A DNA stretch of 64,000 nt from an uncultured Pelagibacteraceae bacterium (GTDB lineage: Bacteria > Pseudomonadota > Alphaproteobacteria > Pelagibacterales > Pelagibacteraceae), in contig CACPKQ010000005.1 in the NCBI GenBank assembly GCA_902634455.1, forward strand, positions 302 to 64,301, in the 5' to 3' direction. A program made the translations under genes and the position numbers. Of the stretch, positions 8,129-30,749 are shown one piece after another (position 1 is the stretch's first letter; each line of letters opens with the position of its first letter). Below the pieces are notes generated by a model, which saw nothing but the letters and a program-made list of their open reading frames with translations, ran no database searches and had not been told where the DNA came from.

Positions 8129-8151
8129 AGTAAATAATTACCTTTAAAATT

Positions 8152-9516: not shown

Positions 9517-9521
9517 GAACT

Positions 9522-10514: not shown

Positions 10515-10520
10515 AATAAA

Positions 10521-11501: not shown

Positions 11502-11504
11502 ATT

Positions 11505-12695
11505 TTATTTATTTGTAATTTTATGAGGATCTGCTGCATCTCTTAGTCCGTCTCCAACAAAGACAAAAGATAATATTAGTACAACTAAAAATATTACAGG
11601 AATAAAGTACCATTGATAATTTAGAAGAACATCAGCAGCTGTTGCATTTTGTAATAATACACCTAATGAGTTAACTGGCTCTCTTAATCCCAAACCGATA
11701 AAACTAAGAGCTGTTTCTGCTAAAAGCATGTAAGGAAAGCTTATAACCAAATCAACTATTATGTAGCTTGTAAAGCTAGGTAAAAGATGTCGTCCAATAA
11801 TATGTGATGATGAAGCTCCACAAAGTTGAGCTGCAAGTACATATTCTTGACTTCTTTCAGCCAATAAATGTGTTCGTACTCTTCTAGCAAGTGTTGGCCA
11901 ATTAATTAACCCTAATAGACATGAGATAAAGAAAAACCTTAACTCTGAACTCCATTCGAGTGGAGCAAAAGCTGCCAAACACATAAACAAAGGTATGGGG
12001 GGTACTGTTCTAACCGCATCGGTAAACATTTGTAAAACACCATCAATCCATCCACCATAATAACCCGAGATACCTCCAATAATTAAAGAAAGGATAAATG
12101 ATATAAAAACACCTAAAGTTCCAACAGCTAAAGAAATGTATATGGCAGCTAAAGTTCTTCCAAATATATCTTTACCGGCCTTGTCGGTACCAAATAAATG
12201 AATACCACCTTTATCCATGCCAAACAAATGCCTATTCATTTTAAAACCAGGCACTTTAAAATCTAAGGCTTCACCTGGTAAATTTATACTGAAATCAAAG
12301 ACTCTGTACTCCCAGCTCTTAACAAAAAAATGCACATACCGCCTTTTCTCTCTATCTTCTTTGTAAACCCATCTAAAATTTGTTTCAGCACTTCTAAATT
12401 TTGTTTGTGTATAAAGAAAAGGTCTAAACGAAAAACCATTTTCATCCCAAAATTTAGGAATTTGTGGTGCGCCATTTTCATATTGTTTATCACGTCCTGC
12501 TATAGTTGGATTGTATGGAGATAAGAAATCTGAAAATAAACCTAAAAAAATTAAAAATATTAAAACAGAGCCAGCTATTTTTGCTGATTTATTTTTAAAA
12601 AAACGTCCTCTAACTAACTGTGCTTGAGTAGCAGTAAAGTAAGCTTCTTTTTTCTTTGAAGCAATTTCTATATTTTTTGTTGTACTAGCTTCCAC
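11505..12695 (-). CDS. ABC permease, OppC/DppC type
   Basis: HLFGTDKAGKDIF, EYVLAAQLCGA (EAA loop), ETALSFIGLG, GDGLRDAADP. Confidence 0.92.
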   Translation of the reverse strand: MEASTTKNIEIASKKKEAYFTATQAQLVRGRFFKNKSAKIAGSVLIFLIFLGLFSDFLSPYNPTIAGRDKQYENGAPQIPKFWDENGFSFRPFLYTQTKFRSAETNFRWVYKEDREKRRYVHFFVKSWEYRVFDFSINLPGEALDFKVPGFKMNRHLFGMDKGGIHLFGTDKAGKDIFGRTLAAIYISLAVGTLGVFISFILSLIIGGISGYYGGWIDGVLQMFTDAVRTVPPIPLFMCLAAFAPLEWSSELRFFFISCLLGLINWPTLARRVRTHLLAERSQEYVLAAQLCGASSSHIIGRHLLPSFTSYIIVDLVISFPYMLLAETALSFIGLGLREPVNSLGVLLQNATAADVLLNYQWYFIPVIFLVVLILSFVFVGDGLRDAADPHKITNK

Positions 12696-13698
12696 CCATT
12701 ACTCCCTTACGAACCCTTGGATCCATTATTGCTAAAATCACATCTGTAACAAAATTTACAAAAACAATTGTAGCTGTTAGCAAAAATATAATAGCACCAG
12801 CTAATTGTTGATCATTTGAACGTGCCAATGCTTCGATTAATAAAGCTCCAGCCTCGGTTAATATTAAAATAAGTGCAACTATAGGAAGTGCACTAAAAAT
12901 TCTATTTAAATCAAATCCGATAGAATTAATAACGGGTCCTAGTGAATGCTTGGCAGGATAACGCCACAACAAAGACATTCCAGAAATACCTCTGGCTCTT
13001 GCTGCCATTACATACAGTTTATCATTTTCATCGAGCATTAAAGCTCTTACTGTTTGAAGAGCAAAAGCGGTTGCATTCCAACCTAAAACAAATATCGGCA
13101 ACCATGCTCTACTTAAAAAATCTTTAACTCTATCTGCAGACCAAGGAACGTTTTCATATTCTTCAGAAAATAAACCTGTCATTGTGTCTCCGTAAAAATA
13201 AGTCATAAAAAGCATAATACAGAGAGCGACCAAAAAATTAGGTAAGGCAATACCTAAATAACTTATAAATTTTAATGACTCGTCAACAACCTTATATTTG
13301 GTCGTGGCCGAAATTATTCCGACCGGTATAGCTATTAAATATGATAAAAGTAATGCGGTTATTGATATAATTAAAGATAAGGAAAACCGTCCACTTAAAA
13401 GTTCATTAATATTCATTCTTAAAATACAACTGTTGCCAAATTCTCCTTTAAAAGCAATGTCAGTTACCCATTTACCGTATCTATATAAAAAAGGTTTATC
13501 TAGACCCAATCGAACTTTTTCAGCTTCAATGTCTTCGTAAGTAATTTGGGAACCTTGTGTGTTTTTAAAAGCTAAATACCTTTCAGCGCAAGTACCGGGA
13601 ACAAGCTCCATTAATGAAAAAACTATAAAACAAACAATCAATAATGTGATAATTGCTAAGAAAAATCTTGTTAATGTAAATTGTATAAAATTAATCAT
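12685..13698 (-). CDS. ABC permease, OppB/DppB type
   Basis: LGLDKP, LPNF, YVMAARARG, C-terminal DPRVR. Confidence 0.92.
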   Translation of the reverse strand: MINFIQFTLTRFFLAIITLLIVCFIVFSLMELVPGTCAERYLAFKNTQGSQITYEDIEAEKVRLGLDKPFLYRYGKWVTDIAFKGEFGNSCILRMNINELLSGRFSLSLIISITALLLSYLIAIPVGIISATTKYKVVDESLKFISYLGIALPNFLVALCIMLFMTYFYGDTMTGLFSEEYENVPWSADRVKDFLSRAWLPIFVLGWNATAFALQTVRALMLDENDKLYVMAARARGISGMSLLWRYPAKHSLGPVINSIGFDLNRIFSALPIVALILILTEAGALLIEALARSNDQQLAGAIIFLLTATIVFVNFVTDVILAIMDPRVRKGVMGGS

Positions 13699-13749
13699 AC
13701 TTATCCATTATTAATGTAACTTAAATTATAGATTAACTAAAAAAAAAAT

Positions 13750-13777
13750 AAAAGCGGCAATTTTCATTGCCGCTTTT
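13750..13777 (-). terminator. Rho-independent terminator/attenuator between the SBP and permease genes
   Basis: AAAAGCGGCAA-ttttca-TTGCCGCTTTT hairpin followed by a T-run on the minus strand. Confidence 0.8.
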
Positions 13778-13809
13778 TAAATTATATATTTTTACTAAAC
13801 TTAACCTAA

Positions 13810-15873
13810 TTACCTTTTAGCATCTGCTAACCACCATTGTGGAGCAAGATACGGATAAGTTCTGTAATACTCATAAGAAACAGTTTGGAAATCTGCAAAA
13901 TTTCTCAAAGCATCTCTGTGGTATGCTGGGAAAGGAGCTTTAACTGTTCCTATAAACAGTGAACTCTCAGTCAATATTTTTGCTATTTTAGCACCCCATT
14001 TATTTGACTCAGGAGTACCTGCTTCATATGACTGGAACTTGTCAATTCCTTCCATTGAGTCGTAAACCCATTTTGGAGGTTTAACACCTTCAGCACCATT
14101 ACTATCAACATAAGCAGCCCACTCTAAACCTTGAGTATGGTTAAAATAGTTACCAAACGGAGGTTTGAAAGTTTCTGGGTCTCCTAAAACGATAGCTAAA
14201 GGTTGACCTTTATCCCAAACGTGTACATCAAGTTTATTTGCTGCTTGAGAGCCTCTGTATTCATCAGGAGTAACTTCTTTGAAAGCAGTTTTAATTCCTA
14301 CTTCACTCCAATGTCTTGCAACAAGTTCAACTTCAACACCACCAATTCCTTGAGTAGCGTAATCAATGTTGATTGCTAAAGGAGCTCCACTAGGAAGATC
14401 TCTAAAGCCATCACCATTAGCATCTTTAACTCCTACTTCATCAAGCCAAGCTTTTGCTTGAGCTGGATCGTATTGAGTCATGTATGTTTTTAACGCTGGA
14501 TCAACAAAGTCAGGCGCTGGTGAGAAACCAACAAACTGTTCTACAGTACCCATTCCATAATAAGCAACTTCATTTATCTCATTACGATTGATCGCAACAG
14601 ACATTGCTTGACGGAATTTTTTGTTACCGTAAACAGATCTTTTTTCCTCATCAGGATGATTAACGTTAAAGCTGAATAAAGCAGCTCCACATCCAGGTTT
14701 AATTTGAACATTATACTTACCTTTATCTTTTCCATCTAATAATTGAGGAACAGATTCAAGCTGAACAGATTGAGCTTTGTAGTCAACTTCTCCATTAACA
14801 AGTTTTAAAATTCTTATTTCTTTTTCGTTAATGTATCTCTCATTCTGGTAGTCAACATAAGGTAATTGGTTTCCTGCAGTATCAACCATATGGAAATATG
14901 GATTAGCCGCATACACCCTTCCTTCAGTAGTATCTTCTATTGTCATAAAAGCTTCCAAAGATGGGTAAGCTGCATATGGTAGATTTTTTACTAACGTAGG
15001 ATTTGCCAACATAGGTGTTGGTGTATCAGTCCAACCTGAGTTTCCATAATAAGCTTTTAAAGCATCATAACCATCTTTAAATCCAAGTTTCTGAGCATTT
15101 GCATCAGCTTTTGAATCTAATTTTGGATGAAATTGTTTTAGGAAATGTTCAGGAATGAAAGCTTGATTGTATGACCAAGCTATTGTAGCTAAAAATCCTG
15201 GCATTGGAGCCGGAAGATTAAATCTAACTTCTTGATCATTCACCACATCTACAGTTGCTGGTTTTCCACCAATTAGCAAGTAAGGATAAGGTTTCTCTCT
15301 TATCTTTGGATCCATCATCATATCTTCATACCAAAACTCAACGTCTCTTGCTGTAAAAGGTTCTCCATTTGACCATTTGTGACCTTTTCTTAAATAAAAA
15401 GTAAGTTGCGTAAAATCACTATTCCATTTGTAATCTTTTGCAACGTTAGGAACGATAGTTGATAAGTCGTCATCAAAACGAACTAGGTTTACATGACGTG
15501 TTGATAACATGTCAGATGTTCCTGCTTCAGTTGCGTTAGATAAAAACTTAAGTGTTCCACCGTATTTACCAATAGAATCATATGGTACAACTACTAAAGG
15601 CTCTTTTGGAAGACGACTTTTAACGCCTTTCAATTTAGAATTTCCTTGAATTGTATCATTGATACTTTTGATATTAGGATTTTCAGAAAATTTCATTTTG
15701 CAGCCTGCTGCCTTTTCATATTCTGAAAGTTCGTATTGTTGTGGATATTTCCCTCCAGCGACACCTTTGGTATCTTTCATTGTGATACCTGTGCAATCTG
15801 CAGCAAAAGAACTCGTGCTAAAGCCTGCAACTAGAAAAGAAAATGCAACAATTTTCACTAATAATTTCTTCAT
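13810..15873 (-). CDS. Family-5 (Opp/Dpp-like) solute-binding protein, subgroup often associated with oligosaccharides
   Basis: Signal peptide MKKLLVK...SFA-A, RLPKEPLVVVP...GKYGGTL, LRKGHKWSNGEPFTARDV, GNQLPYVD; AAGGAG RBS before ATG 15873. Confidence 0.9.
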   Translation of the reverse strand: MKKLLVKIVAFSFLVAGFSTSSFAADCTGITMKDTKGVAGGKYPQQYELSEYEKAAGCKMKFSENPNIKSINDTIQGNSKLKGVKSRLPKEPLVVVPYDSIGKYGGTLKFLSNATEAGTSDMLSTRHVNLVRFDDDLSTIVPNVAKDYKWNSDFTQLTFYLRKGHKWSNGEPFTARDVEFWYEDMMMDPKIREKPYPYLLIGGKPATVDVVNDQEVRFNLPAPMPGFLATIAWSYNQAFIPEHFLKQFHPKLDSKADANAQKLGFKDGYDALKAYYGNSGWTDTPTPMLANPTLVKNLPYAAYPSLEAFMTIEDTTEGRVYAANPYFHMVDTAGNQLPYVDYQNERYINEKEIRILKLVNGEVDYKAQSVQLESVPQLLDGKDKGKYNVQIKPGCGAALFSFNVNHPDEEKRSVYGNKKFRQAMSVAINRNEINEVAYYGMGTVEQFVGFSPAPDFVDPALKTYMTQYDPAQAKAWLDEVGVKDANGDGFRDLPSGAPLAINIDYATQGIGGVEVELVARHWSEVGIKTAFKEVTPDEYRGSQAANKLDVHVWDKGQPLAIVLGDPETFKPPFGNYFNHTQGLEWAAYVDSNGAEGVKPPKWVYDSMEGIDKFQSYEAGTPESNKWGAKIAKILTESSLFIGTVKAPFPAYHRDALRNFADFQTVSYEYYRTYPYLAPQWWLADAKR

Positions 15874-15996
15874 TATTGTCTCCTTATTGTTATTCTTTAA
15901 AACGATATTTAATTTCAATTTTGAGCAAAAGTAAACGTGAGTTAAAATTAATTTCAATCTATAATTGCAATGGTTGACTTAAAAGTATAATTTTTA

Positions 15997-17400
15997 TTAA
16001 TTTTTTTCAACCTGTCGTTTAAAGTCAAATATTTCAATACCTAGTAATTTTAATTGATTATTAACCACATATAAAAAAATTATTAATGACAAGTAATTAA
16101 TGGTCAAAATTCCAAACCATAATCCTTGTAAATCATAGTTTAAATAAAAACATAAAAACCAAAATATAATAGAAGCACCCAAAACTTCTTTAAAAAAACT
16201 AATAAAAGTTGTGTATATAGGTTTTTTAAGACCTTGCATTAATGAAATCGAAATTTGTAAAGCTGTAAATGCAGGGATAAATAATGCTGAAATTTTAAGG
16301 TAATAAGATCCAATTTGAATAACATTTATATCATCTGTAAATATTTTCATTAAAAGATTAGATCCAAAAAAAATGACAAAACCCCCTATTATCATCATAA
16401 TCAAACCATATTTCATACAAACTAAATAACTTTCTTTAATACGATCATATTTCATTGCACCAAAATTCTGACCAGTTAAAGAAAGACAAGCAAAATGCAA
16501 ACCAATTGCTGGTAATAAAATTATTTGCTCTATACGAAGGGCAATTCCATAAGCAGCTACTGAACTGCTGCTTGTATCTTGTGTTGGAAAAAAGGACGCA
16601 AAAAAAGTAATAATAAAAAAACCTGATGCAATACATAATGTATTTAATGATGCTGGAAATGCTTGTGTGATAATGTCTTTTTGATATTTAAATTTTGGAA
16701 TAAAATCATCGAAAGAAATATCTTCAAAGTAATTAGTAATTTTTTTTAATCTATAAAAAACATAAATTGTAGCAATAAATTCTGCTATAATAGTTGCGTA
16801 AGCAATTCCTTTAATACCCATAGGAGGAATTGGTCCAAAACCATAAATAAGGAGTGGATCTAAAACTAAATTTACAAAAAAACCAATTATAAAAACATTA
16901 GCGTAAGTTTTTGTATCACCAACTGCATTTAAACCAGCTGTAGGAGTAGAATCTAAGATAATGAAAGTACATCCCCAAAAAATAATATTCATATATTGTA
17001 CTGCAAAATTAAAATATTCACCTTCTGCACTTAAAAGTTTAAATAAGTATGGAATTGACAAAAGACCAATTATCATAATTACAATGGAAGCTATGACGGA
17101 AAAACTAATTGTCTGTAATAAATATTTTTTTGCCAGCTGTTTGTTTCCTGAACCTTCGGCATTAGCAATTAATGCAGTTGCACCTTCACGGGTTCCACGA
17201 GAAATTGTAATAATCATCATATACATTGGAAAAGATATAGTAATGGCTGCTACTGCTATAGAACTTATTTTTGAAGCAAAATAAGTGTCAACCACATTAA
17301 ACATTGTATGAAAAAAAAATCCAACACTCACTGGTACTGCCATTTTTATAGCCAACTTTGAAATTGAGTCTTCTGTAAGGTTTAATTTTTGATTTTTCAT
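15997..17400 (-). CDS. MATE-family transporter
   Basis: FNVVDTYF, LDPLLI, MGIKGIAYAT, GQNFGA; about 12 TM; likely start ATG 17400. Confidence 0.88.
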   Translation of the reverse strand: MKNQKLNLTEDSISKLAIKMAVPVSVGFFFHTMFNVVDTYFASKISSIAVAAITISFPMYMMIITISRGTREGATALIANAEGSGNKQLAKKYLLQTISFSVIASIVIMIIGLLSIPYLFKLLSAEGEYFNFAVQYMNIIFWGCTFIILDSTPTAGLNAVGDTKTYANVFIIGFFVNLVLDPLLIYGFGPIPPMGIKGIAYATIIAEFIATIYVFYRLKKITNYFEDISFDDFIPKFKYQKDIITQAFPASLNTLCIASGFFIITFFASFFPTQDTSSSSVAAYGIALRIEQIILLPAIGLHFACLSLTGQNFGAMKYDRIKESYLVCMKYGLIMMIIGGFVIFFGSNLLMKIFTDDINVIQIGSYYLKISALFIPAFTALQISISLMQGLKKPIYTTFISFFKEVLGASIIFWFLCFYLNYDLQGLWFGILTINYLSLIIFLYVVNNQLKLLGIEIFDFKRQVEKN

Positions 17401-17483
17401 TAGATTTTTTAATAGATTATACTTTTTCAAACATATTACTATGCAAACATTAATTTTTGATTTAATTTTATTATTATTTAAAG

Positions 17484-19019
17484 ATGAAAAAATCAGTTTT
17501 ATTTATTTGTGCTGACCAATGGAGGTGGGATTGTTTTGGTTTTATGGGACATAAACATGCTCATACACCCACTATTGACAAATTAGCTTCTAGAAGTACC
17601 GCTTTTACAAAACATTTCACAAATATAATTCCTTGTGGACCCTCAAGGGCAACGATGTTAACTGGTCTATACCCTTTTATTCATCGTTCAGTTGTTAATG
17701 GTGCTCCATTAGATGAACGTTTTACAAATATTGCTTTAGAAGTAAAAAAACTTGGATACGACCCTACTCTTTATGGGTACACAGATACTTCGTATGATCC
17801 TCGTAAATTAGATAAAAATGATCCTCGTCTTTTTACTTATGAATCTCCTATGCCAGGTTTTAATCCTGTTTGCCATTTGCCTAGTGGAAATCCTGAACCG
17901 TGGGCTTCTTATTTAGAAGAAAAAGGTATTAAGGTAAAAAAACCAACTGATTTATATATATGTCCAGAAGCAAATTATGAAGAAGGATTTGCATATAAAG
18001 CATGGAAAATTCCTACAGAACTTTCTGATACTTCGTTCTTAGCAGATAGAGCTGCTGAAGATTTAAGAAATTTAAAAAAACCTTTTTTTATGCATGTATC
18101 TTTTTTAAAGCCTCACCCACCTTATTGTGTATCTGACCCTTGGCATAGTTTGATTGATCCTACAAAATTGGAAAATGACATTTTAGATGAAAATTGTGAT
18201 TATAGAAATAAACTTCATCCTTTAGCAGAAAAAATTGTTGAATGTTTTGAAGTCAAAGGCAATAAAACTCCAGAAATAAATTACAAAAATCTAACAAAAA
18301 AAGATATAGCAAGAATACAAGCAGTTTATTTAGGTATGTGTGCTGAAGTAGATTTTAACATTAAAAAAATATTAAAAGCCCTTGATGATAACGGGCAATC
18401 AGATAATACAATGATAATTTTTACTAGCGATCACGGAGAGATGCTTGGTCAACACAAAATGTTTGGAAAAAAAGGTTGGTGGGATCAATCTTACCGTATA
18501 CCTTTAATTGTTTACACACCAAATTGTAAACCTCAAATGTTGAATGAAATGACAGAATCAGTTGACCTTTTGCCAACTATTATTGATTGGTTAGGAGGTG
18601 AAATACCTATAGATTGTAACGGAAGATCTTTAATCTCAAATATTGAAAGTGGAAAACCAAATTTACCAAATAGAGACTACGTAATTTTTGAATGGGATTT
18701 TAGAGATCTATACCTAAATAAAAATTCAAAAAAATTAACTTTAGCTCCTGAGGAGTGTAATTTATCAGTAATAAGAACTGATGAATGGAAATATGTTCAT
18801 TTTCCAGCTTTTGAACCTTTGTTATATAATATTAAAAATGACCCAAATGAAAAAGTAAATTTAGCTACAAATTCAAAATATGATAAAATTAAAAGTGAAA
18901 TGCTAAGCAAACTTTTAAGTCATCGTATTAGACATTCTGAACGTCAAATGACAAACACAAAATTAACTTCAGAAGGACCAAAGATATTAAATGGTCCATC
19001 GATAAGACAAATAGTATAA
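17484..19019 (+). CDS. pehA: Phosphonate monoester hydrolase / phosphodiesterase (alkaline phosphatase superfamily, formylglycine-type)
   Basis: DQWR, PCGPSRATMLTGLY, HRSVVNGAPLD, GYDPTLYGYT, DPR...NDPR, PHPP, SDHGEMLG, WKYVHF. These match the PMH subfamily pattern better than arylsulfatases. No signal peptide. Confidence 0.8.
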   Translation: MKKSVLFICADQWRWDCFGFMGHKHAHTPTIDKLASRSTAFTKHFTNIIPCGPSRATMLTGLYPFIHRSVVNGAPLDERFTNIALEVKKLGYDPTLYGYTDTSYDPRKLDKNDPRLFTYESPMPGFNPVCHLPSGNPEPWASYLEEKGIKVKKPTDLYICPEANYEEGFAYKAWKIPTELSDTSFLADRAAEDLRNLKKPFFMHVSFLKPHPPYCVSDPWHSLIDPTKLENDILDENCDYRNKLHPLAEKIVECFEVKGNKTPEINYKNLTKKDIARIQAVYLGMCAEVDFNIKKILKALDDNGQSDNTMIIFTSDHGEMLGQHKMFGKKGWWDQSYRIPLIVYTPNCKPQMLNEMTESVDLLPTIIDWLGGEIPIDCNGRSLISNIESGKPNLPNRDYVIFEWDFRDLYLNKNSKKLTLAPEECNLSVIRTDEWKYVHFPAFEPLLYNIKNDPNEKVNLATNSKYDKIKSEMLSKLLSHRIRHSERQMTNTKLTSEGPKILNGPSIRQIV

Positions 19020-19024
19020 AATAT

Positions 19025-20074
19025 ATGCTTACTACAGTTATTGGTGCATATCCTAAACCTAAATACCTTAAACTTCCTGATTGGTTTAATGCTGATGGTG
19101 GTACTGATACACAATATCCAACGAAAGATTATCATGATGCAATTAAAGAAATGGGAATTGAAGCTGAAAATATATTTCAAAAAGCAACTGAAGAAGTAAT
19201 TAGAGACCAAATAGAATGTGGAATTGATATTATAACTGATGGCGAGGTACGTAGAGAAAATTATATCCACTATCATTGCCGCCATTTGGATGGAATCGAT
19301 TTTAATAAGTTGACCAAAAAAGTAGCAAGAACAGGAAATTATGAATGTTGGTTGCCTACTATAACAGGAACTGTAAAAGCTAAAGAAGCTTTTTTGGTGA
19401 GGGAATGGCAGTTAGCACAAAAAATGTCTTCTAAACCCGTAAAAATAACTATACCAGGTCCAATGACTATAACTGATACAATATCTAATGAATTTTATAA
19501 TTCTCCAAAAAAAATGGGAGAAGATTTAGCTGAAGCTATAAAAGTTGAAATAAATAGACTGGCTGAAGCAGGTTGCAAATATATTCAAGTTGATGAACCT
19601 TTGTTTGCTAGAAAACCAAAAGAAGCTATTGAATATGGAATTAAAAATCTTGAAAAATGTTTTGAAGGAATAGTGAATAAAAAAATAGATAAAATTACAC
19701 ACATATGTTGCGGTTACCCTGATAAATTAGATGCTGTTAATTACCCTAAAGCTCCACTTAATTCGTATCACGAAATTGCTAAAATGCTAGACAATTCAAT
19801 TGTAGACTCAATTTCAATAGAAGATGCTCATAGATACAACGATTTAAATTTGTTAAGTAAATATAAAAATAAAAAAATAATTTTCGGTGTTTTAAAAATT
19901 GCTAGTAGTAAAACTGATTCTGAAGAAGATATTTATAATAGAGTTAAAGAAGCACTTAACCATATAGATAAAGAAAGGCTTATACTAGCTCCTGATTGTG
20001 GACTTGGTCACTTACCAAGAGAACTTTCTAAAAAAAAATTAAAAATAATGTCGGAAGTGGCAAATAAATTTTAA
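19025..20074 (+). CDS. Single-domain ('core') MetE-like Zn-dependent thiol alkyltransferase
   Basis: TTVIGAYPKP, DGEVRRENY, PGPMT, IQVDEP, HxC (HICC), E, PDCGL zinc ligands; no N-terminal MetE barrel. Confidence 0.8.
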   Translation: MLTTVIGAYPKPKYLKLPDWFNADGGTDTQYPTKDYHDAIKEMGIEAENIFQKATEEVIRDQIECGIDIITDGEVRRENYIHYHCRHLDGIDFNKLTKKVARTGNYECWLPTITGTVKAKEAFLVREWQLAQKMSSKPVKITIPGPMTITDTISNEFYNSPKKMGEDLAEAIKVEINRLAEAGCKYIQVDEPLFARKPKEAIEYGIKNLEKCFEGIVNKKIDKITHICCGYPDKLDAVNYPKAPLNSYHEIAKMLDNSIVDSISIEDAHRYNDLNLLSKYKNKKIIFGVLKIASSKTDSEEDIYNRVKEALNHIDKERLILAPDCGLGHLPRELSKKKLKIMSEVANKF

Positions 20075-20151
20075 ATTATTTTGTCACGGTACTTATTTAT
20101 TTAATGGTTTTTATTGCAGATGTTTATTAACTGATATATAGAATGTGTTTT

Positions 20152-21393
20152 ATGTCAAAAATTGATAAAATTTCTGTTAATGGAAAATCATACAAATGGC
20201 CTACAAAACCAGCTGTTGTTATTTGTTTAGATGGAAGCGAGCCAGGACCAAAAGGTTATATTGATACTGCAATTAGAATGGATTGTATGCCTTTCATGAA
20301 ATCAATGTTAAGTAAATCAACTTATGAAATTGGTAAATGTGCAATGCCAAGCTTCACAAATGTGAATAATATGTCAATTGTTACTGGAACAACTCCAGAT
20401 GTGCATGGTATATGTGGTAACTTCTTTTTTAATCCAGATGATGGAAAAGAAACATTGATGAATGATGACTCTTTTTTACGTGTTTCAACAATTTTTGAAG
20501 CTTTTGAAAATGCCGGTGCGAAAATAGCAATAATTACAGCAAAAGAAAAACTAAGAAAATTATTAGGAAAAAATCTTAAAAAAGCTATTTGTTTCTCATC
20601 TGAAAAAGCAGACACAGCAAACTTAAAAGAAAATAGAATAGAAAATGTTTTAGATTTAGTAAAAAAACCTCTACCAGAAGTTTATAGCTCAGATTTGTCA
20701 GAATTTATTTTTGCTGCTGCAGTAGAAATTATTAAAAAAGAGAAGATTGATTTAATTTATCTATCAACAACTGATTATATTCAACACAAATCTGCTCCTG
20801 GAGGCAAATTAGCTAATAATTTTTATCATATGCTTGATGGTTACCTGTCTAAATTTTATGACTTAGGTTGTGAAATATCTTTAACCGCAGATCATGGAAT
20901 GAAGGGCAAGACGAACGAAGATGGTTCTTTAAATTTAATCTATATACAAGACGAACTAGATAAAAAATTTGGTAAAGATGAATGTAATGTTGTTTGTACT
21001 ATCACAGACCCTTATGTTGTTCATCATGGGGCTTTGGGTGGTTTTGTGACAATATACCTAAAAAATAAAGCTAAAATTGATGATGTTATAAACTATATCA
21101 AAACAATAAAAGGTGTTGAGCTGGTTCTGAATAAAAAAGATAGTGTTAAAAAGTTGAATCAACCAGAGGATAGAATTGGTGATATTGTTGTTACATCGAA
21201 TGAAAATTTTGCAATTGGTAAAAAAAAGAGTGATCATGATTTAAGTCAATTAAAAGAACCATTAAGAACTCATGGTGGCCTTGGAGAAACAGATATACCT
21301 ATTTTTATATCAAAAAAAATCGATGCTAGCTACAAATCAAAAGGTGTCTTAAAGAATTACGATATATTTGATTTAGCCTTAAATTATGGATAA
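20152..21393 (+). CDS. phnA: Phosphonoacetate hydrolase
   Basis: ICLDG, MPSFTNVNNMSIVTG, HGICGNFF, YLSTTDYIQHK, TADHGM, DPYVVHHGALG, LRTHGG. Confidence 0.93.
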   Translation: MSKIDKISVNGKSYKWPTKPAVVICLDGSEPGPKGYIDTAIRMDCMPFMKSMLSKSTYEIGKCAMPSFTNVNNMSIVTGTTPDVHGICGNFFFNPDDGKETLMNDDSFLRVSTIFEAFENAGAKIAIITAKEKLRKLLGKNLKKAICFSSEKADTANLKENRIENVLDLVKKPLPEVYSSDLSEFIFAAAVEIIKKEKIDLIYLSTTDYIQHKSAPGGKLANNFYHMLDGYLSKFYDLGCEISLTADHGMKGKTNEDGSLNLIYIQDELDKKFGKDECNVVCTITDPYVVHHGALGGFVTIYLKNKAKIDDVINYIKTIKGVELVLNKKDSVKKLNQPEDRIGDIVVTSNENFAIGKKKSDHDLSQLKEPLRTHGGLGETDIPIFISKKIDASYKSKGVLKNYDIFDLALNYG

Positions 21394-22828
21394 AAAAATT
21401 TTTAAGGTTAAAGGGACCTATGTAAATGGTCAGTGGCTTAACTCAAAAGATAGATACGATATTTATAACCCATCTAATGGTGAAAAATTATCCGACGTAC
21501 CTATATCAGATAAAAAAGAACTTGAATTAGCAGTAGACTCTGCAAAAAAAGCTCAGCTAATCTGGTCAAAAACTTCTTTAATTGAAAGAGCTAACGCTTT
21601 AGAAAAGTTAGCAAAAAAAATACTAGAAAAAGAGGAAGAGTTTGCTTTAATTGACACTTACGATTCAGGTAATGCTTTAACTGGGATGAGAAAAGATGTT
21701 AAGGAAACAGTAAATAACATAAGATATTTTTGTGGATTGGTAAGAGAAGTTAAAGGCGAAACTTTTTCCATGGAAAAAAACCACTTAAATTTTACACGTT
21801 ATCAACCTTATGGTGTCGTACTTAAAATCAATCCTTTTAATCACCCTTTTAGATTTTGCGTTGAAAAAATTGCTGCACCTTTATTAATGGGGAATTCTCT
21901 GATAATCAAAAATTCTGAACAAGCACCAATTTCCTCTTTGAGATTTTGTGAACTGTTAGAAAATATATTTCCAAAAGGTTTGATAAACGTTGTAACAGGA
22001 GGTCCAGATAACGGAAAATTTTTAGTTGAACATCCAGATATCAAAAGAATAGCTGTAATAGGATCTGTTAATACTGGAATAGCTGTTGCAAAATCTGCTG
22101 CCCCTCTTCTCAAAAATATATCTTTAGAGTTAGGTGGTAAAAATCCAATTATTGTTTTTGATGACGCTGATCCAGATTTTGCAGCAAGTTTAGCTATAAA
22201 AGGTATGAACCTAAGCAGACAAGGACAGTCATGTAGTTCTACTTCTCGTGTTCTTATAAATAAAAAAGTTAAAGAAAAATTCCTTAAATCACTTGTAGAA
22301 AAAGCAAAAAGTATTCCTGTTGGATTGCCGTGGATTGAGACAAATGAAATAGGTCCGATCGTATCGAAAAAACAATTTGAAGGAGTCATGAACTATATTA
22401 AATCTGGCATTGAACAAGGTGCAAAATTACTTTTAGGAGGAGATCAAAATAAATCAGATGATCTTAAAAACGGTTTTTTTATAAATCCTACTATTTTCTG
22501 TGATGTTAAACCTGATATGAAAATAGCAAAGGAAGAAATTTTTGGACCAGTTATATCCGTTATTGACTGGGATGATTATGATGAGATGGTAAAAATTGCT
22601 AATTCAACTAAGTATGGATTAACAACTATGATTGTAACTAACTCTTTATCTAATGCCATGAAAACTGCTGAAGATGTAGAGGTTGGATATGTTTGGGTAA
22701 ACACATCGGGCAGATATTCTGGTGCACAATATGGTGGTTGGAAACTTAGCGGTATTGGTGTTGAAGAATGCTTTGATGAAATGAAAGGTTACGCAAGACT
22801 TAAAAATATTAATATGAAATGGAATTAA
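21386..22828 (+). CDS. NAD-dependent aldehyde dehydrogenase; putative phosphonoacetaldehyde dehydrogenase (PhnY role)
   Basis: PFNHP, LELGGKNP, GQSC catalytic Cys, EEIFGPV; start overlaps phnA. Confidence 0.8.
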   Translation: MDKKIFKVKGTYVNGQWLNSKDRYDIYNPSNGEKLSDVPISDKKELELAVDSAKKAQLIWSKTSLIERANALEKLAKKILEKEEEFALIDTYDSGNALTGMRKDVKETVNNIRYFCGLVREVKGETFSMEKNHLNFTRYQPYGVVLKINPFNHPFRFCVEKIAAPLLMGNSLIIKNSEQAPISSLRFCELLENIFPKGLINVVTGGPDNGKFLVEHPDIKRIAVIGSVNTGIAVAKSAAPLLKNISLELGGKNPIIVFDDADPDFAASLAIKGMNLSRQGQSCSSTSRVLINKKVKEKFLKSLVEKAKSIPVGLPWIETNEIGPIVSKKQFEGVMNYIKSGIEQGAKLLLGGDQNKSDDLKNGFFINPTIFCDVKPDMKIAKEEIFGPVISVIDWDDYDEMVKIANSTKYGLTTMIVTNSLSNAMKTAEDVEVGYVWVNTSGRYSGAQYGGWKLSGIGVEECFDEMKGYARLKNINMKWN

Positions 22829-22979
22829 ATTTTTAATTATATAATCCCTAAAAATTATTTTTGGTAAAAAAATGCTTAAAATAAAAAAAAAATTAAAATT
22901 ATGTTTGAAGGAAAAATTAAATCTTAAATAAAATTTTTTTCTTGAATTTCTGAAATAAAACTGTATCAAAACTCTAATT

Positions 22980-23180
22980 ATGGCAAAAAGAAATTTTAAA
23001 TCAAAAAAAATTAAGAAATCTTATAAAGAAGAAAATTACGAAGAATTATCACCAATTAGAAGACTTGAAAGAAAACTTGATAGAGTAAATCATATTATGG
23101 AACTAATTCGTACAATTGTTCCTATAATGTTGTTGGCATTAAATTGTATAATTTTAGCAAAAATATTTAATCTGATTTAA
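22980..23180 (+). CDS. Small protein with basic N-terminus, short coiled coil and one C-terminal TM helix
   Basis: 66-aa ORF filling the ALDH-phnW gap; hydrophobic tail IVPIMLLALNCIILAKIFNLI. Confidence 0.6.
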   Translation: MAKRNFKSKKIKKSYKEENYEELSPIRRLERKLDRVNHIMELIRTIVPIMLLALNCIILAKIFNLI

Positions 23181-23201
23181 TATTAGTCCTATATAAAAAA
23201 A

Positions 23202-24302
23202 ATGGATAAAAAACTGCTTACACCAGGTCCCCTTACAACTTCTGATTCAACAAAAAAAGCTATGCTTCATGACTGGGGTTCACGTGATGTTAAGTTCATA
23301 GATTTAAACAAAAAAATTCGTGAAACTCTAGTTGACCTAATTAATGGTCAAAATGTTTTTGAATGCGTTCCAATGCAAGGAAGTGGAACATTTTCTGTTG
23401 AAGCAATGATAGGGTCTTTAACAAACAAAAAATCAAAAATATTAATTTTAATTAATGGTGCTTATGGTCAACGGATGAAAAAAATATGTTCTTATATGTC
23501 TAGAAATTTTATTACATATGATGTTGCCGAACATGAAATTCATGATATTAACAAAATTCAAAATCTAATTAATGAAAATAAAGATCTGACACACATATTT
23601 TCCGTTTACTGTGAAACAACGTCAGGAATTTTAAACCCAATACAATCGATTTCGGAATTAGCCAAAAAAAATAATATATCCTTTTTTATTGATGCAATGA
23701 GTGCTTTTGGAGCTTTGCCCTTAGATGTAAAAAAAACATATTTTGATGCTGTTGCCGCTTCTTCAAATAAATGTTTAGAAGGAGTTCCTGGAGTTGGATT
23801 TATATTAGTAAGAAAATCTGTTCTTCAGACTTCTAAAAATAATTCTCATTCTCTTAGCTTAGATTTGTATGATCAATGGGAATCTATGGAAAAAAATGCA
23901 CAATGGAGATTTACACCTCCAACTCATGTTTTGGCTGCATTCAATCAAGCTTTAACGGAACACCAAAATGAAGGTGGAACAAAAGGTAGGTATCAACGTT
24001 ATAATAAAAATTGTAAAATAATTTGTGATGGTATGGCAAAAATAGGTTTTAAACAGCTTCTATCAAATGAATTACAAGCACCTATTATTATTACATTTTT
24101 ACAACCAAAAGTTCCAAATTTCGATTTCAAAAAGTTTTATAATTCATTAAGTGACAAAGGTTTCTTAATTTATCCTGGAAAACTTACTGTTGCTGATACT
24201 TTTAGAATTGGTTGTATAGGACATTTAAATGAAAAGGATATGAAAGACGCTATTATTGCTGTAGAAAATACATTAAAGGATCTTAACATAAAATTAAGTT
24301 AA
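23202..24302 (+). CDS. phnW: 2-aminoethylphosphonate:pyruvate transaminase
   Basis: LLTPGPLTTS, DWGSRD, QGSGT, CETTSG, DAMSAFG, SSNKCLEGVPG (PLP Lys), QWRFTPPTH, IYPGKLT. Confidence 0.95.
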   Translation: MDKKLLTPGPLTTSDSTKKAMLHDWGSRDVKFIDLNKKIRETLVDLINGQNVFECVPMQGSGTFSVEAMIGSLTNKKSKILILINGAYGQRMKKICSYMSRNFITYDVAEHEIHDINKIQNLINENKDLTHIFSVYCETTSGILNPIQSISELAKKNNISFFIDAMSAFGALPLDVKKTYFDAVAASSNKCLEGVPGVGFILVRKSVLQTSKNNSHSLSLDLYDQWESMEKNAQWRFTPPTHVLAAFNQALTEHQNEGGTKGRYQRYNKNCKIICDGMAKIGFKQLLSNELQAPIIITFLQPKVPNFDFKKFYNSLSDKGFLIYPGKLTVADTFRIGCIGHLNEKDMKDAIIAVENTLKDLNIKLS

Positions 24303-24306
24303 AGAA

Positions 24307-24945
24307 ATGACGGCTACATTTGAAATTCCTTTAGTTAGAGCAACAAATGATAATCTAAAAGGATATGGTAATTTAGTTAATAATTTTGATGATTGTCAAA
24401 TCCAAATTACACAATGGCCGAAACAAGGTTGGCGTGAGATTGATCCTGGTACTGGTGATGAAGGTGGCATAACAGAAGGATCTTTTGAAGTTTGGTGGGA
24501 TAAAAATATTTTATATGGAAAAAATAATGCTGTACCTCATAAAAATATAAACAATTATGAAAAAGATGATGTATATCTTTTGGGTTATAGTTACCATCCT
24601 AGCGAAAAAAATACTAAACAGAATACTGAAGTAATTGAAGACATATATTTATGGCATGCAAATTATCACCCTGATGGAGGCCAGCTTTTTTTCCCTCAAG
24701 AAAAAAAACCATTTGTTTGTGCTTTAGCATTACCAGGTGATGACGTAAAACCAGAAAATTTCAAAGCATTTTATTTTGATGGATCAATGGGTTTATATAT
24801 TCACCCGTATGTATGGCACGATGCTGTATTTCCTATAAATAAAACAGCAACTTTTAGAGGCAAACAAGGAAAAGTGCATGCGCGTGTGAGTATTGATTTT
24901 TCTAAAGAATTTAATGGATATTTAAAATTTAAAACTAAAATTTAA
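24307..24945 (+). CDS. Ureidoglycolate lyase (AllA)-like cupin
   Basis: NYHPDGGQLFFP, ALALPGDD, GLYIHPYVWH metal-cupin pattern. Confidence 0.6.
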   Translation: MTATFEIPLVRATNDNLKGYGNLVNNFDDCQIQITQWPKQGWREIDPGTGDEGGITEGSFEVWWDKNILYGKNNAVPHKNINNYEKDDVYLLGYSYHPSEKNTKQNTEVIEDIYLWHANYHPDGGQLFFPQEKKPFVCALALPGDDVKPENFKAFYFDGSMGLYIHPYVWHDAVFPINKTATFRGKQGKVHARVSIDFSKEFNGYLKFKTKI

Positions 24946-24949
24946 ATAA

Positions 24950-26155
24950 CTAATTTATTCTTCCATATATATCCTTATATCTTACTATATCAGTTTCTTT
25001 TAATATAGATCCTGTCTGAACCTCGATGATTTTTACAAGTTTTTTATAATTATTTTCAATCCTATGCACTGCTCCTTGTGGAATAAATACTGATTCACTA
25101 GTCTTTTTTAAATATTTATTTTTATTAATTGTAATTAGTGGTTTGCCTTGTGTTATCATCCAGTGCTCAGATCTATGATGATGTTTTTGAAGGCTTATAG
25201 AAGATTTTGAATTAACAGTTAGTTCTTTTACTAAAAAGTTTTTACCTTCAAATAAATTAACATATTTACCCCAAGGTCTGTAATAAATATTTTTTTTCTT
25301 AAAGTACTTAGATTTATTTTTATGATATATTTTAGATATTTCTCTCCAGCTACCTAAGTCAGACCAAGGTATATCTAATTTAATAGCATTAATTTTCTTT
25401 GTTTTTTCAAGGATTCCATAATCAAAAGATTTTTCTACTGATTTATTAAAAAATTTTTTGTTTAAATAATAGGTGTTATTTTTATATTTTGCCTTATTAA
25501 CTGCTTTTAAACAGTTTTTGTATGTTTTGTTTTGATATTTTTGAAAATTATTAATTATAGAGTCTTTTCTTAAATAAAACATTCCAGAGTTCCAATAACC
25601 ATTATTTTTAATAACCAATTTAGCTTTATTCAAATTGGGTTTTTCGATAAATTTAGTAACTTTGTTTATATTTTTTTTAATCTTTTTTGTTAAAAAATAA
25701 CCATATTCACTAGAAGGATTTGTTGGCTTAATTCCAAATATAAATATATTTTGACTATCTAAATTAGTTTTATTTTTTTTTATAGCTGTATTTAAAATAT
25801 GAGATTTTTCAATTAAATGATCGGCAGCAAAATACATCAAAGGTTGGTTTAAAGGTATATCTTTAATTAAAGCTGAAGATAATATTGCAGGGGCGGTATT
25901 TTTTTTTGCTGGTTCTAGGACTATTTTATATTTCTTAACTTTGTTTTTTTTAAGAGATTTTCTTACATCTTTTAAATATTTTAAGTTAGTACTTATTATT
26001 GGATAATCAAAAAAAGGTTTTTTAATTCTTTCTAGTGTTTTTTGAATTAATGACCAGCCACCAAAATCAATAAATTGCTTAGCTTGATGGTTTTTTTGTT
26101 TAGGCCAAAGTCTTGTTCCAGCACCTCCGCAAAGAATAACAGGTCTTATTTTCAT
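24950..26155 (-). CDS. manC: Mannose-1-phosphate guanylyltransferase / phosphomannose isomerase
   Basis: PVILCGGAGTRLWP, EPAKKNTAPA, FIEKP, WSDLGSW, cupin RPWG...SLQKHHHRSEHW. Confidence 0.92.
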   Translation of the reverse strand: MKIRPVILCGGAGTRLWPKQKNHQAKQFIDFGGWSLIQKTLERIKKPFFDYPIISTNLKYLKDVRKSLKKNKVKKYKIVLEPAKKNTAPAILSSALIKDIPLNQPLMYFAADHLIEKSHILNTAIKKNKTNLDSQNIFIFGIKPTNPSSEYGYFLTKKIKKNINKVTKFIEKPNLNKAKLVIKNNGYWNSGMFYLRKDSIINNFQKYQNKTYKNCLKAVNKAKYKNNTYYLNKKFFNKSVEKSFDYGILEKTKKINAIKLDIPWSDLGSWREISKIYHKNKSKYFKKKNIYYRPWGKYVNLFEGKNFLVKELTVNSKSSISLQKHHHRSEHWMITQGKPLITINKNKYLKKTSESVFIPQGAVHRIENNYKKLVKIIEVQTGSILKETDIVRYKDIYGRIN

Positions 26156-30500: not shown

Positions 30501-30625
30501 TGCAACATTTAGTTTATAAATTAATCATTCGAATACACAATAATGAATTTAAAGCGAAAATTGATAGACTAATTAAAAAAATCAATTATATAAACAATTG
30601 TTAGATCAGATTATTATAGATTTGT

Positions 30626-30699: not shown

Positions 30700-30749
30700 A
30701 AAAAAGTAGTTGTTTTAGATAAAAAAAAAAGTAAGTTCTCAATCTATAT

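What the first reader, a model, noticed from the sequence alone, without database searches (positions are those of the whole stretch)
19025..20074. Core MetE-like Zn enzyme wired between PMH and phnA: possible methyl salvage from N-methylated phosphonates
Seen: it starts 5 bp after the PMH stop, keeps the Zn ligands (HICC, E, PDCG), and lacks the N-terminal barrel and the WVQSYG folate-binding segment of MetE. Established: single-domain MetE relatives use non-folate alkyl donors, and the family includes epoxyalkane:CoM transferase. N-mono/di/trimethyl-AEP occur naturally, and PhnW needs a primary amine. Inference: it may transfer a methyl from a methylated phosphonate or released head group to homocysteine (BHMT-like), linking P scavenging to methionine synthesis. 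Less likely, it opens an epoxide phosphonate.
Basis: inference. Interest (0 to 1): 0.6.

Follow-up and report, generated by a model that had tools for sequence, protein, structure and literature searches.

The report
MetE-like methyltransferase tied to phosphonate catabolism
This is a real half-size relative of methionine synthase MetE from an uncharacterised, tightly conserved clade that sits repeatedly beside genes degrading methylated phosphonates and betaines, so it may make methionine using methyl groups from such compounds.

Summary
Window 19025-20074(+) encodes a 349-aa single-barrel MetE catalytic-domain protein, 5 bp after a PMH-like hydrolase. The Zn ligands H226/C228/E266/C325 are intact, and it has no N-terminal barrel or WVQSYG segment.

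It is not an ordinary methionine synthase. It falls below every NCBIfam cut-off. Its closest structure is MesD (3RPD, TM 0.86, 28% identity), but it belongs to a separate clade with its own signature. Neither MesX nor a B12-binding domain was found in its genome.

It lies in a 17.8-kb island (7143-24950) missing from 12/12 same-genus genomes. The phnA adjacency is rare: 0 of 80 representative loci. PMH adjacency is common (22 loci).

The link to phosphonates still recurs independently. Among 15 alphaproteobacterial genomes carrying the clade, 5 have tmpA or tmpA-like genes (trimethyl-AEP to glycine betaine + Pi) within 5.5 kb, three to four as tmpA-tmpB-coreMetE operons. One more has phnA. Dimethylglycine-dehydrogenase-like genes and ABC importers also recur.

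Best reading (about 45%): a folate-, corrinoid- and MesX-independent homocysteine S-methyltransferase that uses a quaternary-ammonium donor, glycine betaine or trimethyl-AEP. Nothing has been tested biochemically. Other first readers of this scan flagged the sulfatase plus MetE-like pair in other genomes.

The parts
19025..20074 (+). Core-MetE-like Zn thiol methyltransferase (P0001, 349 aa), the finding itself
   Evidence: PF01717 scores 141 bits. The AF2 model has pLDDT 93.4. Its best PDB match is MesD 3RPD at TM 0.86.
19700..19708 (+). Codons for Zn ligands His226 and Cys228 (HIC of HICCGYP)
   Evidence: Read. H226 and C228 are 100% conserved in 82 clade members.
19820..19822 (+). Codon for Zn ligand Glu266 (SIEDAH)
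19997..19999 (+). Codon for Zn ligand Cys325 (PDCG)
17484..19019 (+). PMH/PehA-like sulfatase-superfamily hydrolase with the CGPSR formylglycine motif. It lies 5 bp upstream and is probably co-transcribed.
   Evidence: NF045661 PehA scores 475 bits (cut-off 900) and PF00884 164 bits. The motif is read. The same pair occurs in 22 other loci.
20143..21393 (+). Phosphonoacetate hydrolase PhnA
   Evidence: TIGR02335 scores 494 bits, cut-off 408.
21386..22828 (+). Aldehyde dehydrogenase in the PhnY position. It overlaps the end of phnA by 8 nt.
   Evidence: PF00171 scores 485 bits. The best NCBIfam model is BADH at 419 bits (below cut-off). The PhnY model scores only 249 of 636.
22980..23180 (+). 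66-aa ORF with a C-terminal hydrophobic helix
   Evidence: A 66-aa gene sits at the same place in L006, L007 and L008.
23202..24302 (+). AEP:pyruvate transaminase PhnW
   Evidence: NF010006 scores 522 bits, cut-off 296.
24307..24945 (+). Cupin resembling ureidoglycolate lyase; last gene of the island
   Evidence: PF04115 scores 36.8 bits.
15997..17430 (-). MATE transporter, divergent from PMH
   Evidence: PF01554 scores 166 bits.
9522..15957 (-). Opp-type ABC importer: 715-aa family-5 binding protein (13810-15957), two permeases and two ATPases
   Evidence: PF00496 scores 181 bits. Orthologues at 73-97% identity lie beside the core-MetE gene in about 36 loci.
8152..9516 (-). FAD-dependent oxidoreductase (PF12831) at the end of the transporter operon
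   Evidence: No homologue was found in the other 100 loci.
7151..8128 (-). IPNS-like 2OG/Fe(II) oxygenase
   Evidence: PF03171 and PF14226.
7143..24950 (.). 17.8-kb genomic island that holds all of the above
   Evidence: Twelve of 12 same-genus genomes match window 1-7142 and 24,922-40,000 at 71-81% identity but not the stretch between. In G201 and G203 the two flanks lie 48 and about 410 bp apart.

Best explanation
P0001 is a Zn-dependent homocysteine S-methyltransferase, a 'core' methionine synthase. It belongs to a distinct, highly conserved clade that is sister to, but not part of, MesD.

**Proposed mechanism.** The Zn site (H226, C228, E266, C325) activates the homocysteine thiolate. Homocysteine is held by E74, D190 and Y231. 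The methyl group comes neither from methyl-folate (no N-terminal barrel, no WVQSYG segment), nor from a corrinoid protein, nor from a MesX-dependent route. It comes directly from a small quaternary-ammonium compound supplied by the neighbouring import and catabolic genes, as in BHMT but on a MetE fold.

**Likely donor.** Across the clade the best-supported donor is glycine betaine, the product of TmpA/TmpB acting on trimethyl-AEP. The dimethylglycine product would pass to the adjacent DMGDH-like enzymes. In this island the donor could instead be trimethyl-AEP or a related N-methylated aminoethyl compound. PMH would release it from an imported ester. Demethylation would then let the FAD oxidoreductase, PhnW, the aldehyde dehydrogenase and PhnA mineralise the phosphonate while methionine is regenerated.

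**Shown:** fold, ligands, clade identity and gene linkages. **Inferred:** the acceptor, the donor class and every pathway step.
For: **Enzyme**
- PF01717 scores 141 bits.
- The AF2 model (pLDDT 93.4) matches MesD 3RPD best (TM 0.86-0.88, rmsd 2.3 Å), then the MetE C-terminal barrels.
- Zn ligands and the homocysteine-binding residues E74, D190 and Y231 are 100% conserved in 82 clade members. Y231 corresponds to MesD Tyr226 as described in PMC7857596.

**Not folate, B12 or MesX**
- The protein is 349 aa and lacks the WVQSYG segment.
- No PF02310 or PF02965 hit was found in the own genome.
- MesX was not found in the own genome or in 5 complete genomes that carry an orthologue. The same search found MesX in 25 of 300 Pseudomonadota, with MesD next to it in the three loci fetched.

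**Separate clade**
- A 53-row clade with SH-aLRT 100 is separated from the MesD group.
- Identity to MesD is 28-29%.
- Clade-only invariant residues are D19-W20-F21, E78-N79-Y80, H82/H84/C85/R86, R196, C229 and D267/H269/R270.

**Context**
- TmpA scores above its NCBIfam cut-off, with TmpB or a Phn-HD oxygenase beside it, in L059, L080, L106 and L108. TmpA-like plus HD genes lie directly upstream on the same strand in L100 and L110, and a TmpA-like gene with a weak HD match in L105.
- That gives 5 of 15 clade-bearing genomes in an even sample of 400 Alphaproteobacteria. TmpA above cut-off is present in 5 of 15 genomes with the clade and 19 of 385 without it.
- DMGDH-like genes occur in 12 loci.
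- An MttB-family quaternary-amine methyltransferase lies directly upstream in L075.
- PhnA lies 1 kb downstream in L095.
- ABC importers are adjacent in most loci.

**Literature**
- TmpAB yields glycine betaine and Pi, and no route is known that feeds trimethyl-AEP into the hydrolytic pathway (PMC10574752, PMC10590968).
Against: - No biochemical or genetic data exist for any clade member. The donor is inferred from gene neighbourhoods only.
- The island has no tmpA/tmpB, so it does not itself produce glycine betaine. The genome already has two PF02574 (BHMT/MmuM-type) genes.
- Many loci, especially SAR11-like ones, are kin with conserved synteny, so the number of independent linkages is far smaller than the number of loci.
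- About half of the non-SAR11 loci show no informative neighbour.
- In Gammaproteobacteria the partners are an aminotransferase, a PotD-like importer and MMSDH, which do not obviously involve betaine.
- Three of five complete genomes with the gene lack the MetH activation domain, and all five lack full-length MetE. This fits a housekeeping synthase equally well.
- A SAM-methyltransferase domain is fused to one member (P0125) and encoded next to 10 others. The betaine model does not explain this.
Confidence: 0.45

Rival explanations
1. It is a general (housekeeping or back-up) folate-independent methionine synthase. Its methyl donor would be an unidentified endogenous metabolite or partner protein, as with MesD, and its position beside phosphonate or betaine genes would carry no functional meaning.
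For: - The Zn and homocysteine sites are intact.
- It is the only PF01717 gene in a genome without MetH.
- Of five complete genomes carrying an orthologue, three lack PF02965 and all five lack full-length MetE.
- Contexts are heterogeneous.
- The literature states that SAR11 lack MetE and MetH (PMC12478193).
Against: - The gene is rare: 0 of 35 other species in the window's own genus, 3 of 200 in its family and 15 of 400 in its class. It arrived here on an island. A core biosynthetic enzyme would not be expected to behave this way.
- In several unrelated lineages it lies inside operons with importers or with tmpAB.
- All five complete genomes also carry PF02574 proteins that could serve methionine synthesis.
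Confidence: 0.27
2. It is a corrinoid-dependent core methionine synthase, as reported for MesA and MesB. It would take the methyl group from methylcobalamin or from a corrinoid protein loaded by an MttB-type quaternary-amine methyltransferase.
For: - Characterised core MetE enzymes use methylcobalamin in vitro (PMC7857596).
- In L075 an MttB-family gene (PF06253, 375 bits) lies directly upstream of the orthologue.
Against: - No B12-binding domain (PF02310) was found in the own genome, while the control search hit 13 of 14 reference genomes. The genome is 81% complete.
- MttB is adjacent in only 1 of about 100 loci.
- Scores to the archaeal-type NCBIfam methionine synthase models are far below cut-off.
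Confidence: 0.05
3. It is not a homocysteine methyltransferase. It would be a Zn-thiolate alkyltransferase acting on another thiol or electrophile, for example epoxide opening as in epoxyalkane:CoM transferase, acting on a phosphonate epoxide or on a product of PMH.
For: - The MetE superfamily includes such enzymes (established knowledge).
- The carboxylate-binding Ser of MetE is Ala8 in this protein.
- Extra invariant His/Cys/Arg residues (H82, H84, C85, R86, C229, H269, R270) set the clade apart.
Against: [quoted passage not shown]
- The Ser/Ala position varies within the clade.
- No epoxide-forming or CoM-related genes were seen in any neighbourhood.
Confidence: 0.1

Closest known systems
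MesD (core methionine synthase of aerobic bacteria; PDB 3RPD; NCBIfam NF006589)
   Same: - It has a single (beta-alpha)8 barrel of about 340 aa.
- It has the same Zn ligands and the same homocysteine contacts, including the Tyr equivalent to MesD Tyr226.
- It is the best structural match (TM 0.86-0.88) and best PDB sequence match.
   Different: - Identity is only 28-29%.
- NF006589 scores 194 bits against a cut-off of 392.
- The two fall in separate, well-supported clades.
- No MesX partner was found in the own genome or in five complete genomes with orthologues, whereas MesX sits beside MesD in the control loci.
- The two have different invariant residues.
Canonical MetE (EC 2.1.1.14), C-terminal catalytic barrel
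   Same: They share the Pfam family PF01717, the Zn site H-x-C...E...C and the DGE and DEP motifs.
   Different: - This protein has no N-terminal barrel and no WVQSYG folate-contacting segment.
- TIGR01371 scores 113 bits against a cut-off of 930.
BHMT / MmuM / Bmt family (PF02574), betaine- or S-methylmethionine-homocysteine methyltransferases
   Same: [quoted passage not shown]
   Different: It is a different Pfam family and lineage. The genome has two PF02574 genes elsewhere. The analogy is inferred, not tested.
MetE-fusion of Phaeocystis antarctica and 'Mes-like' PGA1_c27430 of Phaeobacter inhibens
   Same: These are other MetE catalytic-domain-only proteins of marine organisms whose methyl donor is unknown (PMC10861871, PMC12366255).
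   Different: - MetE-fusion also carries PP-binding and CzcO oxidoreductase domains.
- The P. inhibens knockout showed no DMSP-related phenotype.
- Whether either belongs to this clade was not tested, because no sequence was on hand.
TmpA/TmpB pathway for trimethyl-AEP (Rajakovich et al. 2019, as summarised in PMC10574752)
   Same: tmpA and tmpB are the most informative recurrent neighbours of clade members. Their products are glycine betaine and phosphate.
   Different: The described pathway has two genes, and no MetE-like third gene was mentioned in the papers read. The window's island lacks tmpA/tmpB and carries the hydrolytic PhnW/ALDH/PhnA route instead.

Membership tests
MetE catalytic-domain superfamily (PF01717) | Pfam score above the gathering threshold | tested here: met
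   141.2 bits against a threshold of 21.
MetE catalytic-domain superfamily (PF01717) | Zn ligands His-x-Cys, Glu and Cys | tested here: met
   H226, C228, E266 and C325 are present. They are 99-100% conserved in 82 clade members.
MetE catalytic-domain superfamily (PF01717) | (beta-alpha)8 barrel fold | tested here: met
   The AF2 model has pLDDT 93.4. It matches 3RPD at TM 0.86 and MetE C-terminal barrels at 0.70-0.78.
Canonical MetE (methyl-folate dependent) | N-terminal barrel (PF08267) and a length of about 750 aa | tested here: not met
   The protein is 349 aa. PF08267 gives only a partial 25.4 bits, below the cut-off of 27. TIGR01371 scores 113 of 930.
Canonical MetE (methyl-folate dependent) | WVQSYG folate-contacting segment | tested here: not met
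   The aligned segment reads KVARTGNYE.
MesD | NCBIfam NF006589 equivalog score | tested here: not met
   194 bits against a cut-off of 392. A true MesD (P0228) scores 701.
MesD | MesX (DUF1852) partner gene | tested here: not met
   No hit in the own genome (81% complete) or in 5 complete genomes with orthologues. As a positive control, the search found MesX in 25 of 300 genomes, with MesD adjacent in the three loci fetched.
MesD | Tyr equivalent to MesD Tyr226 contacting the substrate carboxylate | tested here: met
   Y231 in HICCGYP aligns with the Y of HICYGYG in 3RPD. It is invariant in the clade.
MesD | Placement inside the MesD clade | tested here: not met
   The quick ML tree separates a 53-row clade (SH-aLRT 100) from a 13-row group that holds MesD. 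The careful tree search was not finished.
Corrinoid-dependent core methionine synthases (MesA/MesB/MesC type) | Score to the archaeal or anaerobe-type NCBIfam methionine synthase equivalogs | tested here: not met
   NF003317 scores 206 of 406, NF002119 131 of 258 and NF002272 66 of 399. Which of these models corresponds to MesA, B or C was not checked.
Corrinoid-dependent core methionine synthases (MesA/MesB/MesC type) | A corrinoid protein or B12-binding domain in the genome | tested here: not met
   PF02310 was not found in the own genome (81% complete). The control search hit 13 of 14 reference genomes.
BHMT/MmuM family (PF02574) | PF02574 domain | tested here: not met
   P0001 has no PF02574 hit. 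The resemblance is functional only.
Epoxyalkane:CoM transferase | Clustering with XecA/EtnE-type sequences and CoM or epoxide genes nearby | not tested
No such neighbours were seen.
Any homocysteine methyltransferase | Methionine formation from homocysteine with a defined donor | not testable with these tools
   This needs an enzyme assay or genetic complementation.

The most novel reading that the evidence does not exclude
The clade is a fifth family of folate-independent methionine synthases. It would be a MetE-fold analogue of BHMT that takes methyl groups directly from quaternary ammonium compounds, either glycine betaine released by TmpAB or trimethyl-AEP itself. It would act as the missing third step of trimethyl-AEP catabolism. 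In bacteria without B12, MetE or MetH it would couple phosphonate phosphorus scavenging to methionine regeneration.
Probability: 0.33. Interest if true: 0.8.

Novelty: new variant of a known kind. Interest (0 to 1): 0.64.

Why it matters
- **A new methyl-donor class.** Core methionine synthases are known in four families, and the methyl donor of the aerobic one (MesD) is still unknown. A fifth clade with its own invariant residues, no MesX, no corrinoid and repeated operon linkage to tmpA/tmpB and DMGDH-like genes would add a new donor class to the MetE fold.
- **A missing step in phosphonate catabolism.** It would give the trimethyl-AEP pathway a downstream step, or give the hydrolytic PhnW/PhnA route an entry for quaternary AEP. 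The paper read here reports no FAD enzyme acting on M3AEP and only the oxygenase route for its degradation (PMC10590968).
- **Methionine supply in marine bacteria.** It bears on how marine bacteria that lack MetE and MetH regenerate methionine.
- **Easy to test.** The proposal can be checked directly with one recombinant enzyme and a small panel of donors.

Tried and rejected
- **Conserved phn wiring.** I first tested whether the gene is a conserved part of a phn cluster. Eighty species-representative loci showed phnA in none and phnW in one, 8.5 kb away, so that form of the claim was rejected.
- **SAR11 anchor gene.** I then read the gene as a syntenic SAR11 'anchor' with phn genes inserted beside it. 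This was revised. The gene is absent from the other 35 species sampled in its own genus, and the whole 17.8-kb block is an island.
- **Taurine catabolism.** The aminotransferase/AlaDH/Xsc/Pta neighbours suggested taurine catabolism as the functional partner. This was left open, because it rests mostly on synteny within kin.
- **MesD membership.** Rejected.
- **Riboswitch control.** An Rfam scan of the window found only three tRNAs and no SAM or other riboswitch near the gene.
- **Promoter and terminator scan.** It gave no more sites than shuffled sequence.
- **The search for related loci.** The 36-sequence alignment had no conserved stretch to search with. A 12-sequence alignment worked.
- **Tree.** The careful ML tree did not finish in the time allowed, and the quick tree is reported.
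- **Transporter literature.** The SAR11 transporter paper (PMC11485210) had nothing on this family-5 binding protein.
- **Pocket geometry.** Model coordinates could not be inspected. The idea that W20, F21, Y80, Y83 and Y240 form an aromatic cage, and that R86, R196 and R270 bind an anionic group, is untested speculation.
Full report
**1. The observation**

Window 19025-20074(+) is an open frame of 349 aa. It starts 5 nt after the TAA of a 511-aa PMH/PehA-like hydrolase.

It matches the catalytic domain of cobalamin-independent methionine synthase (PF01717, 141 bits). The match to the N-terminal-barrel family is partial and sub-threshold. The Zn ligands can be read directly: H226 and C228 in HICCGYP, E266 in SIEDAH, C325 in PDCG. 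In the alignment to Candida Met6, the MetE segment GWVQSYGS corresponds to KVARTGNY.

Downstream lie PhnA, an aldehyde dehydrogenase, a 66-aa ORF, PhnW and a cupin. Upstream, on the other strand, lie a MATE transporter and an Opp-type ABC importer.

**2. What kind of MetE relative it is**

All NCBIfam methionine synthase models score far below their cut-offs. The best are NF003317 at 206 of 406 and NF006589 (the MesD type) at 194 of 392.

The nearest solved structure is 3RPD, which Price et al. identify as MesD (PMC7857596). An AlphaFold model built on 36 relatives is confident (pLDDT 93.4, pTM 0.92). It superposes best on 3RPD (TM 0.86-0.88, 28% identity), then on the C-terminal barrels of full-length MetE.

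[quoted passage not shown] These are E74, D190, and Y231 at the place of MesD Tyr226. The MetE serine is Ala8 here, but Ser and Ala alternate within the clade.

MesD needs MesX. MesX was not found in this genome (81% complete) or in five complete genomes that carry an orthologue. The same search found MesX in 25 of 300 Pseudomonadota, with MesD adjacent in the three loci fetched. Those MesD proteins are 28-29% identical to P0001.

A quick ML tree puts the window protein in a 53-row clade (SH-aLRT 100), apart from the group holding MesD. The careful search did not finish.

Across 82 clade members at 46-100% identity, many positions are invariant and differ from MesD. These include D19-W20-F21, E78-N79-Y80, H82/H84/C85/R86, R196, C229 and D267/H269/R270. 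Such uniformity suggests one shared function across the clade.

The genome has no B12-binding domain, no MetH and no other PF01717 gene. It does have two PF02574 (BHMT/MmuM-type) genes.

**3. Where the gene sits**

*Closest relatives.* Metagenomic relatives at 88-96% identity share the arrangement MATE | PMH - coreMetE. They vary downstream. L008 has phnA and the aldehyde dehydrogenase. L006 and L007 have only the 66-aa ORF, phnW and the cupin. L010 (71%) has no phn gene.

*Eighty species-representative loci.*

| Neighbour | Loci |
|---|---|
| PhnA within 10 kb | 0 |
| PhnW within 10 kb | 1 (L063, 8.5 kb away) |
| PMH-like gene directly upstream, same strand | 22 |
| PHP-like phosphoesterase in that slot | 7 |
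| Same Opp-type importer adjacent | about 36 |

*Rarity and the island.* In the window's own taxonomic family, true orthologues were found in 3 of 200 genomes, and in none of 35 other species of its genus. Twelve of 12 same-genus genomes align to window 1-7142 and to about 24,950 onward, but not to the 17.8 kb between. In two of them the flanks are 48 and about 410 bp apart. The gene therefore arrived here as part of an island running from the 2OG oxygenase at 7151 to the cupin ending at 24945.

**4. Recurrent partners in other lineages**

I clustered neighbouring ORFs and annotated them. This gave three patterns.

- **Other Pelagibacterales-like groups.** A PotD-like ABC importer lies divergent from the gene. 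Nearby are a class-III aminotransferase, alanine dehydrogenase, an Xsc-like ThDP enzyme, a DMGDH-like FAD/GcvT protein and a small SAM-methyltransferase.
- **Arenicellales and other Gammaproteobacteria.** The gene sits in a co-directional operon: aminotransferase, PotD-like importer, coreMetE, MMSDH.
- **Several Alphaproteobacteria.** TmpA and TmpB, the two oxygenases that convert trimethyl-AEP into glycine betaine and phosphate (PMC10574752), lie next to the gene.

To avoid choosing loci by eye, I drew 400 Alphaproteobacteria evenly. Fifteen carry the clade, and I fetched all 17 places. Five genomes have tmpA or a tmpA-like gene within 5.5 kb.

| Locus | Neighbour and score | Position |
|---|---|---|
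| L106 | TmpA 575 bits (cut-off 400), TmpB 253 | directly upstream, gaps of 30 and 45 bp |
| L108 | TmpA 526, TmpB 311 | 3.6-5.3 kb away |
| L100, L110 | TmpA-like plus an HD-domain oxygenase | directly upstream, same strand |
| L105 | TmpA-like plus a weak partial HD match | directly upstream, same strand |
| L095 | PhnA 564 bits | 1 kb downstream |

L059 and L080 from the first set add two more tmpAB cases.

In the same 400 genomes, TmpA above its cut-off is present in 5 of 15 genomes with the clade and in 19 of 385 without it. DMGDH-like genes lie in 12 loci. An MttB-family quaternary-amine methyltransferase lies directly upstream in L075.

**5. Interpretation**

The protein has everything needed to activate and bind homocysteine. 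It has nothing for folate, corrinoid or MesX. Its relatives keep turning up inside modules that import or produce quaternary ammonium compounds and that process their demethylated products.

The most economical reading is a BHMT-like reaction on a MetE fold: an onium methyl donor plus homocysteine gives methionine plus the demethylated amine.

Glycine betaine fits the tmpAB and DMGDH contexts best. For this island, which has the hydrolytic PhnW/ALDH/PhnA route and no tmpAB, trimethyl-AEP or another N-methylated aminoethyl compound released by PMH is an alternative. Zangelmi et al. note that no FAD enzyme acts on trimethyl-AEP and that the oxygenase route is the only one known (PMC10590968). 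A methyl transfer to homocysteine would fill that gap, and the island's FAD oxidoreductase could then act on the tertiary amine.

All of this is inference from context.

**6. Caveats and rivals**

- Many loci are kin, so independent events are few.
- About half of the non-SAR11 contexts are uninformative.
- The gammaproteobacterial operon points to beta-alanine-type chemistry.
- A SAM-methyltransferase domain is fused to one member and encoded beside others, and this remains unexplained.
- Three of five complete genomes with the gene lack the MetH activation domain and all five lack full-length MetE. A general methionine synthase with an unknown donor therefore remains a serious rival.
- The corrinoid and non-homocysteine readings are less likely.

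**7. Literature**

No paper read here characterises this clade.

- The 2025 PNAS paper says SAR11 lack MetE and MetH. It notes that core-MetE homologues exist in cosmopolitan marine bacteria and calls their function questionable (PMC12478193).
- A 'Mes-like' gene of Phaeobacter inhibens was deleted without a DMSP phenotype (PMC12366255).
- MetE-fusion proteins of algae have other added domains (PMC10861871).
- Other first readers in this scan flagged the sulfatase plus MetE-like pair in several other genomes. One search confirms that pair is widespread. None of those notes mentioned tmpAB.

**8. Verdict**

The feature is real and described correctly. It is a new variant within the core methionine synthases, not a member of MesD or canonical MetE. 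The phnA 'wiring' is incidental to one small lineage, but an independent and repeated link to trimethyl-AEP and betaine catabolism exists elsewhere in the clade.

Noticed in passing
window 7143-24950: The whole block, from the IPNS-like 2OG oxygenase to the cupin, is a 17.8-kb island absent from 12 of 12 same-genus genomes. In two of them the flanking genes are 48 and about 410 bp apart.
   Followed up: yes
window 17484-19019: The PMH-like hydrolase has an intact CGPSR formylglycine motif and no obvious signal peptide. No FGE-sulfatase family (PF03781) gene was found in the genome, which is 81% complete.
   Followed up: partly
window 21386-22828: The aldehyde dehydrogenase overlapping the end of phnA scores best to betaine-aldehyde dehydrogenase models (419 bits, below cut-off). 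It scores only 249 of 636 to the PhnY model, so it is probably a non-orthologous replacement of PhnY.
   Followed up: partly
P0125; L043-L050 about 1.2 kb downstream of the core-MetE gene; L095:2177-2902: A SAM-dependent methyltransferase domain is fused to the C-terminus of one clade member (625 aa). A 206-aa Methyltransf_11 gene lies next to 10 Pelagibacteraceae orthologues. A PCMT-type methyltransferase sits between the core-MetE gene and phnA in L095. These remain unexplained.
   Followed up: no
L054, L063, L064, L065, L083, L086, L089: Gammaproteobacteria (Arenicellales and others) carry a co-directional operon: class-III aminotransferase, PotD-like ABC importer, core-MetE, MMSDH (708 bits). 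Alanine dehydrogenase and panC are nearby. This suggests catabolism of a beta-alanine-type compound.
   Followed up: partly
L075:8237-9970: An MttB-superfamily (quaternary-amine methyltransferase type) gene lies 25 bp upstream of the core-MetE orthologue in a Rhodospirillales chromosome. A DMGDH-like gene lies downstream.
   Followed up: no
P0134, P0158, P0173, P0178 (alignment A1): A few clade members have lost the Zn-ligand Cys and His motifs (for example HIGRSRP and PDSG). They may be non-catalytic paralogues.
   Followed up: no
L002:7031-7939 and six to ten similar loci: In some relatives the slot between the family-5 binding protein and the core-MetE gene holds a 302-aa PHP-like phosphoesterase (HGHSxxSDG) instead of the PMH-like hydrolase. 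Two unrelated esterase families therefore alternate at the same position.
   Followed up: partly
G000 contig C9, about 14.9-16.0 kb and 6.3-6.8 kb: The window's genome has a gamma-butyrobetaine-hydroxylase/TmpA-like gene (282 bits, below cut-off) and an HD-domain TmpB-like gene. They lie 8 kb apart on another contig and are not paired.
   Followed up: no
window 13810-15957: The family-5 solute-binding protein is unusually long (715 aa, with about 165 extra N-terminal residues). Its orthologues next to the core-MetE gene are 678-687 aa. Its ligand is unknown.
   Followed up: no
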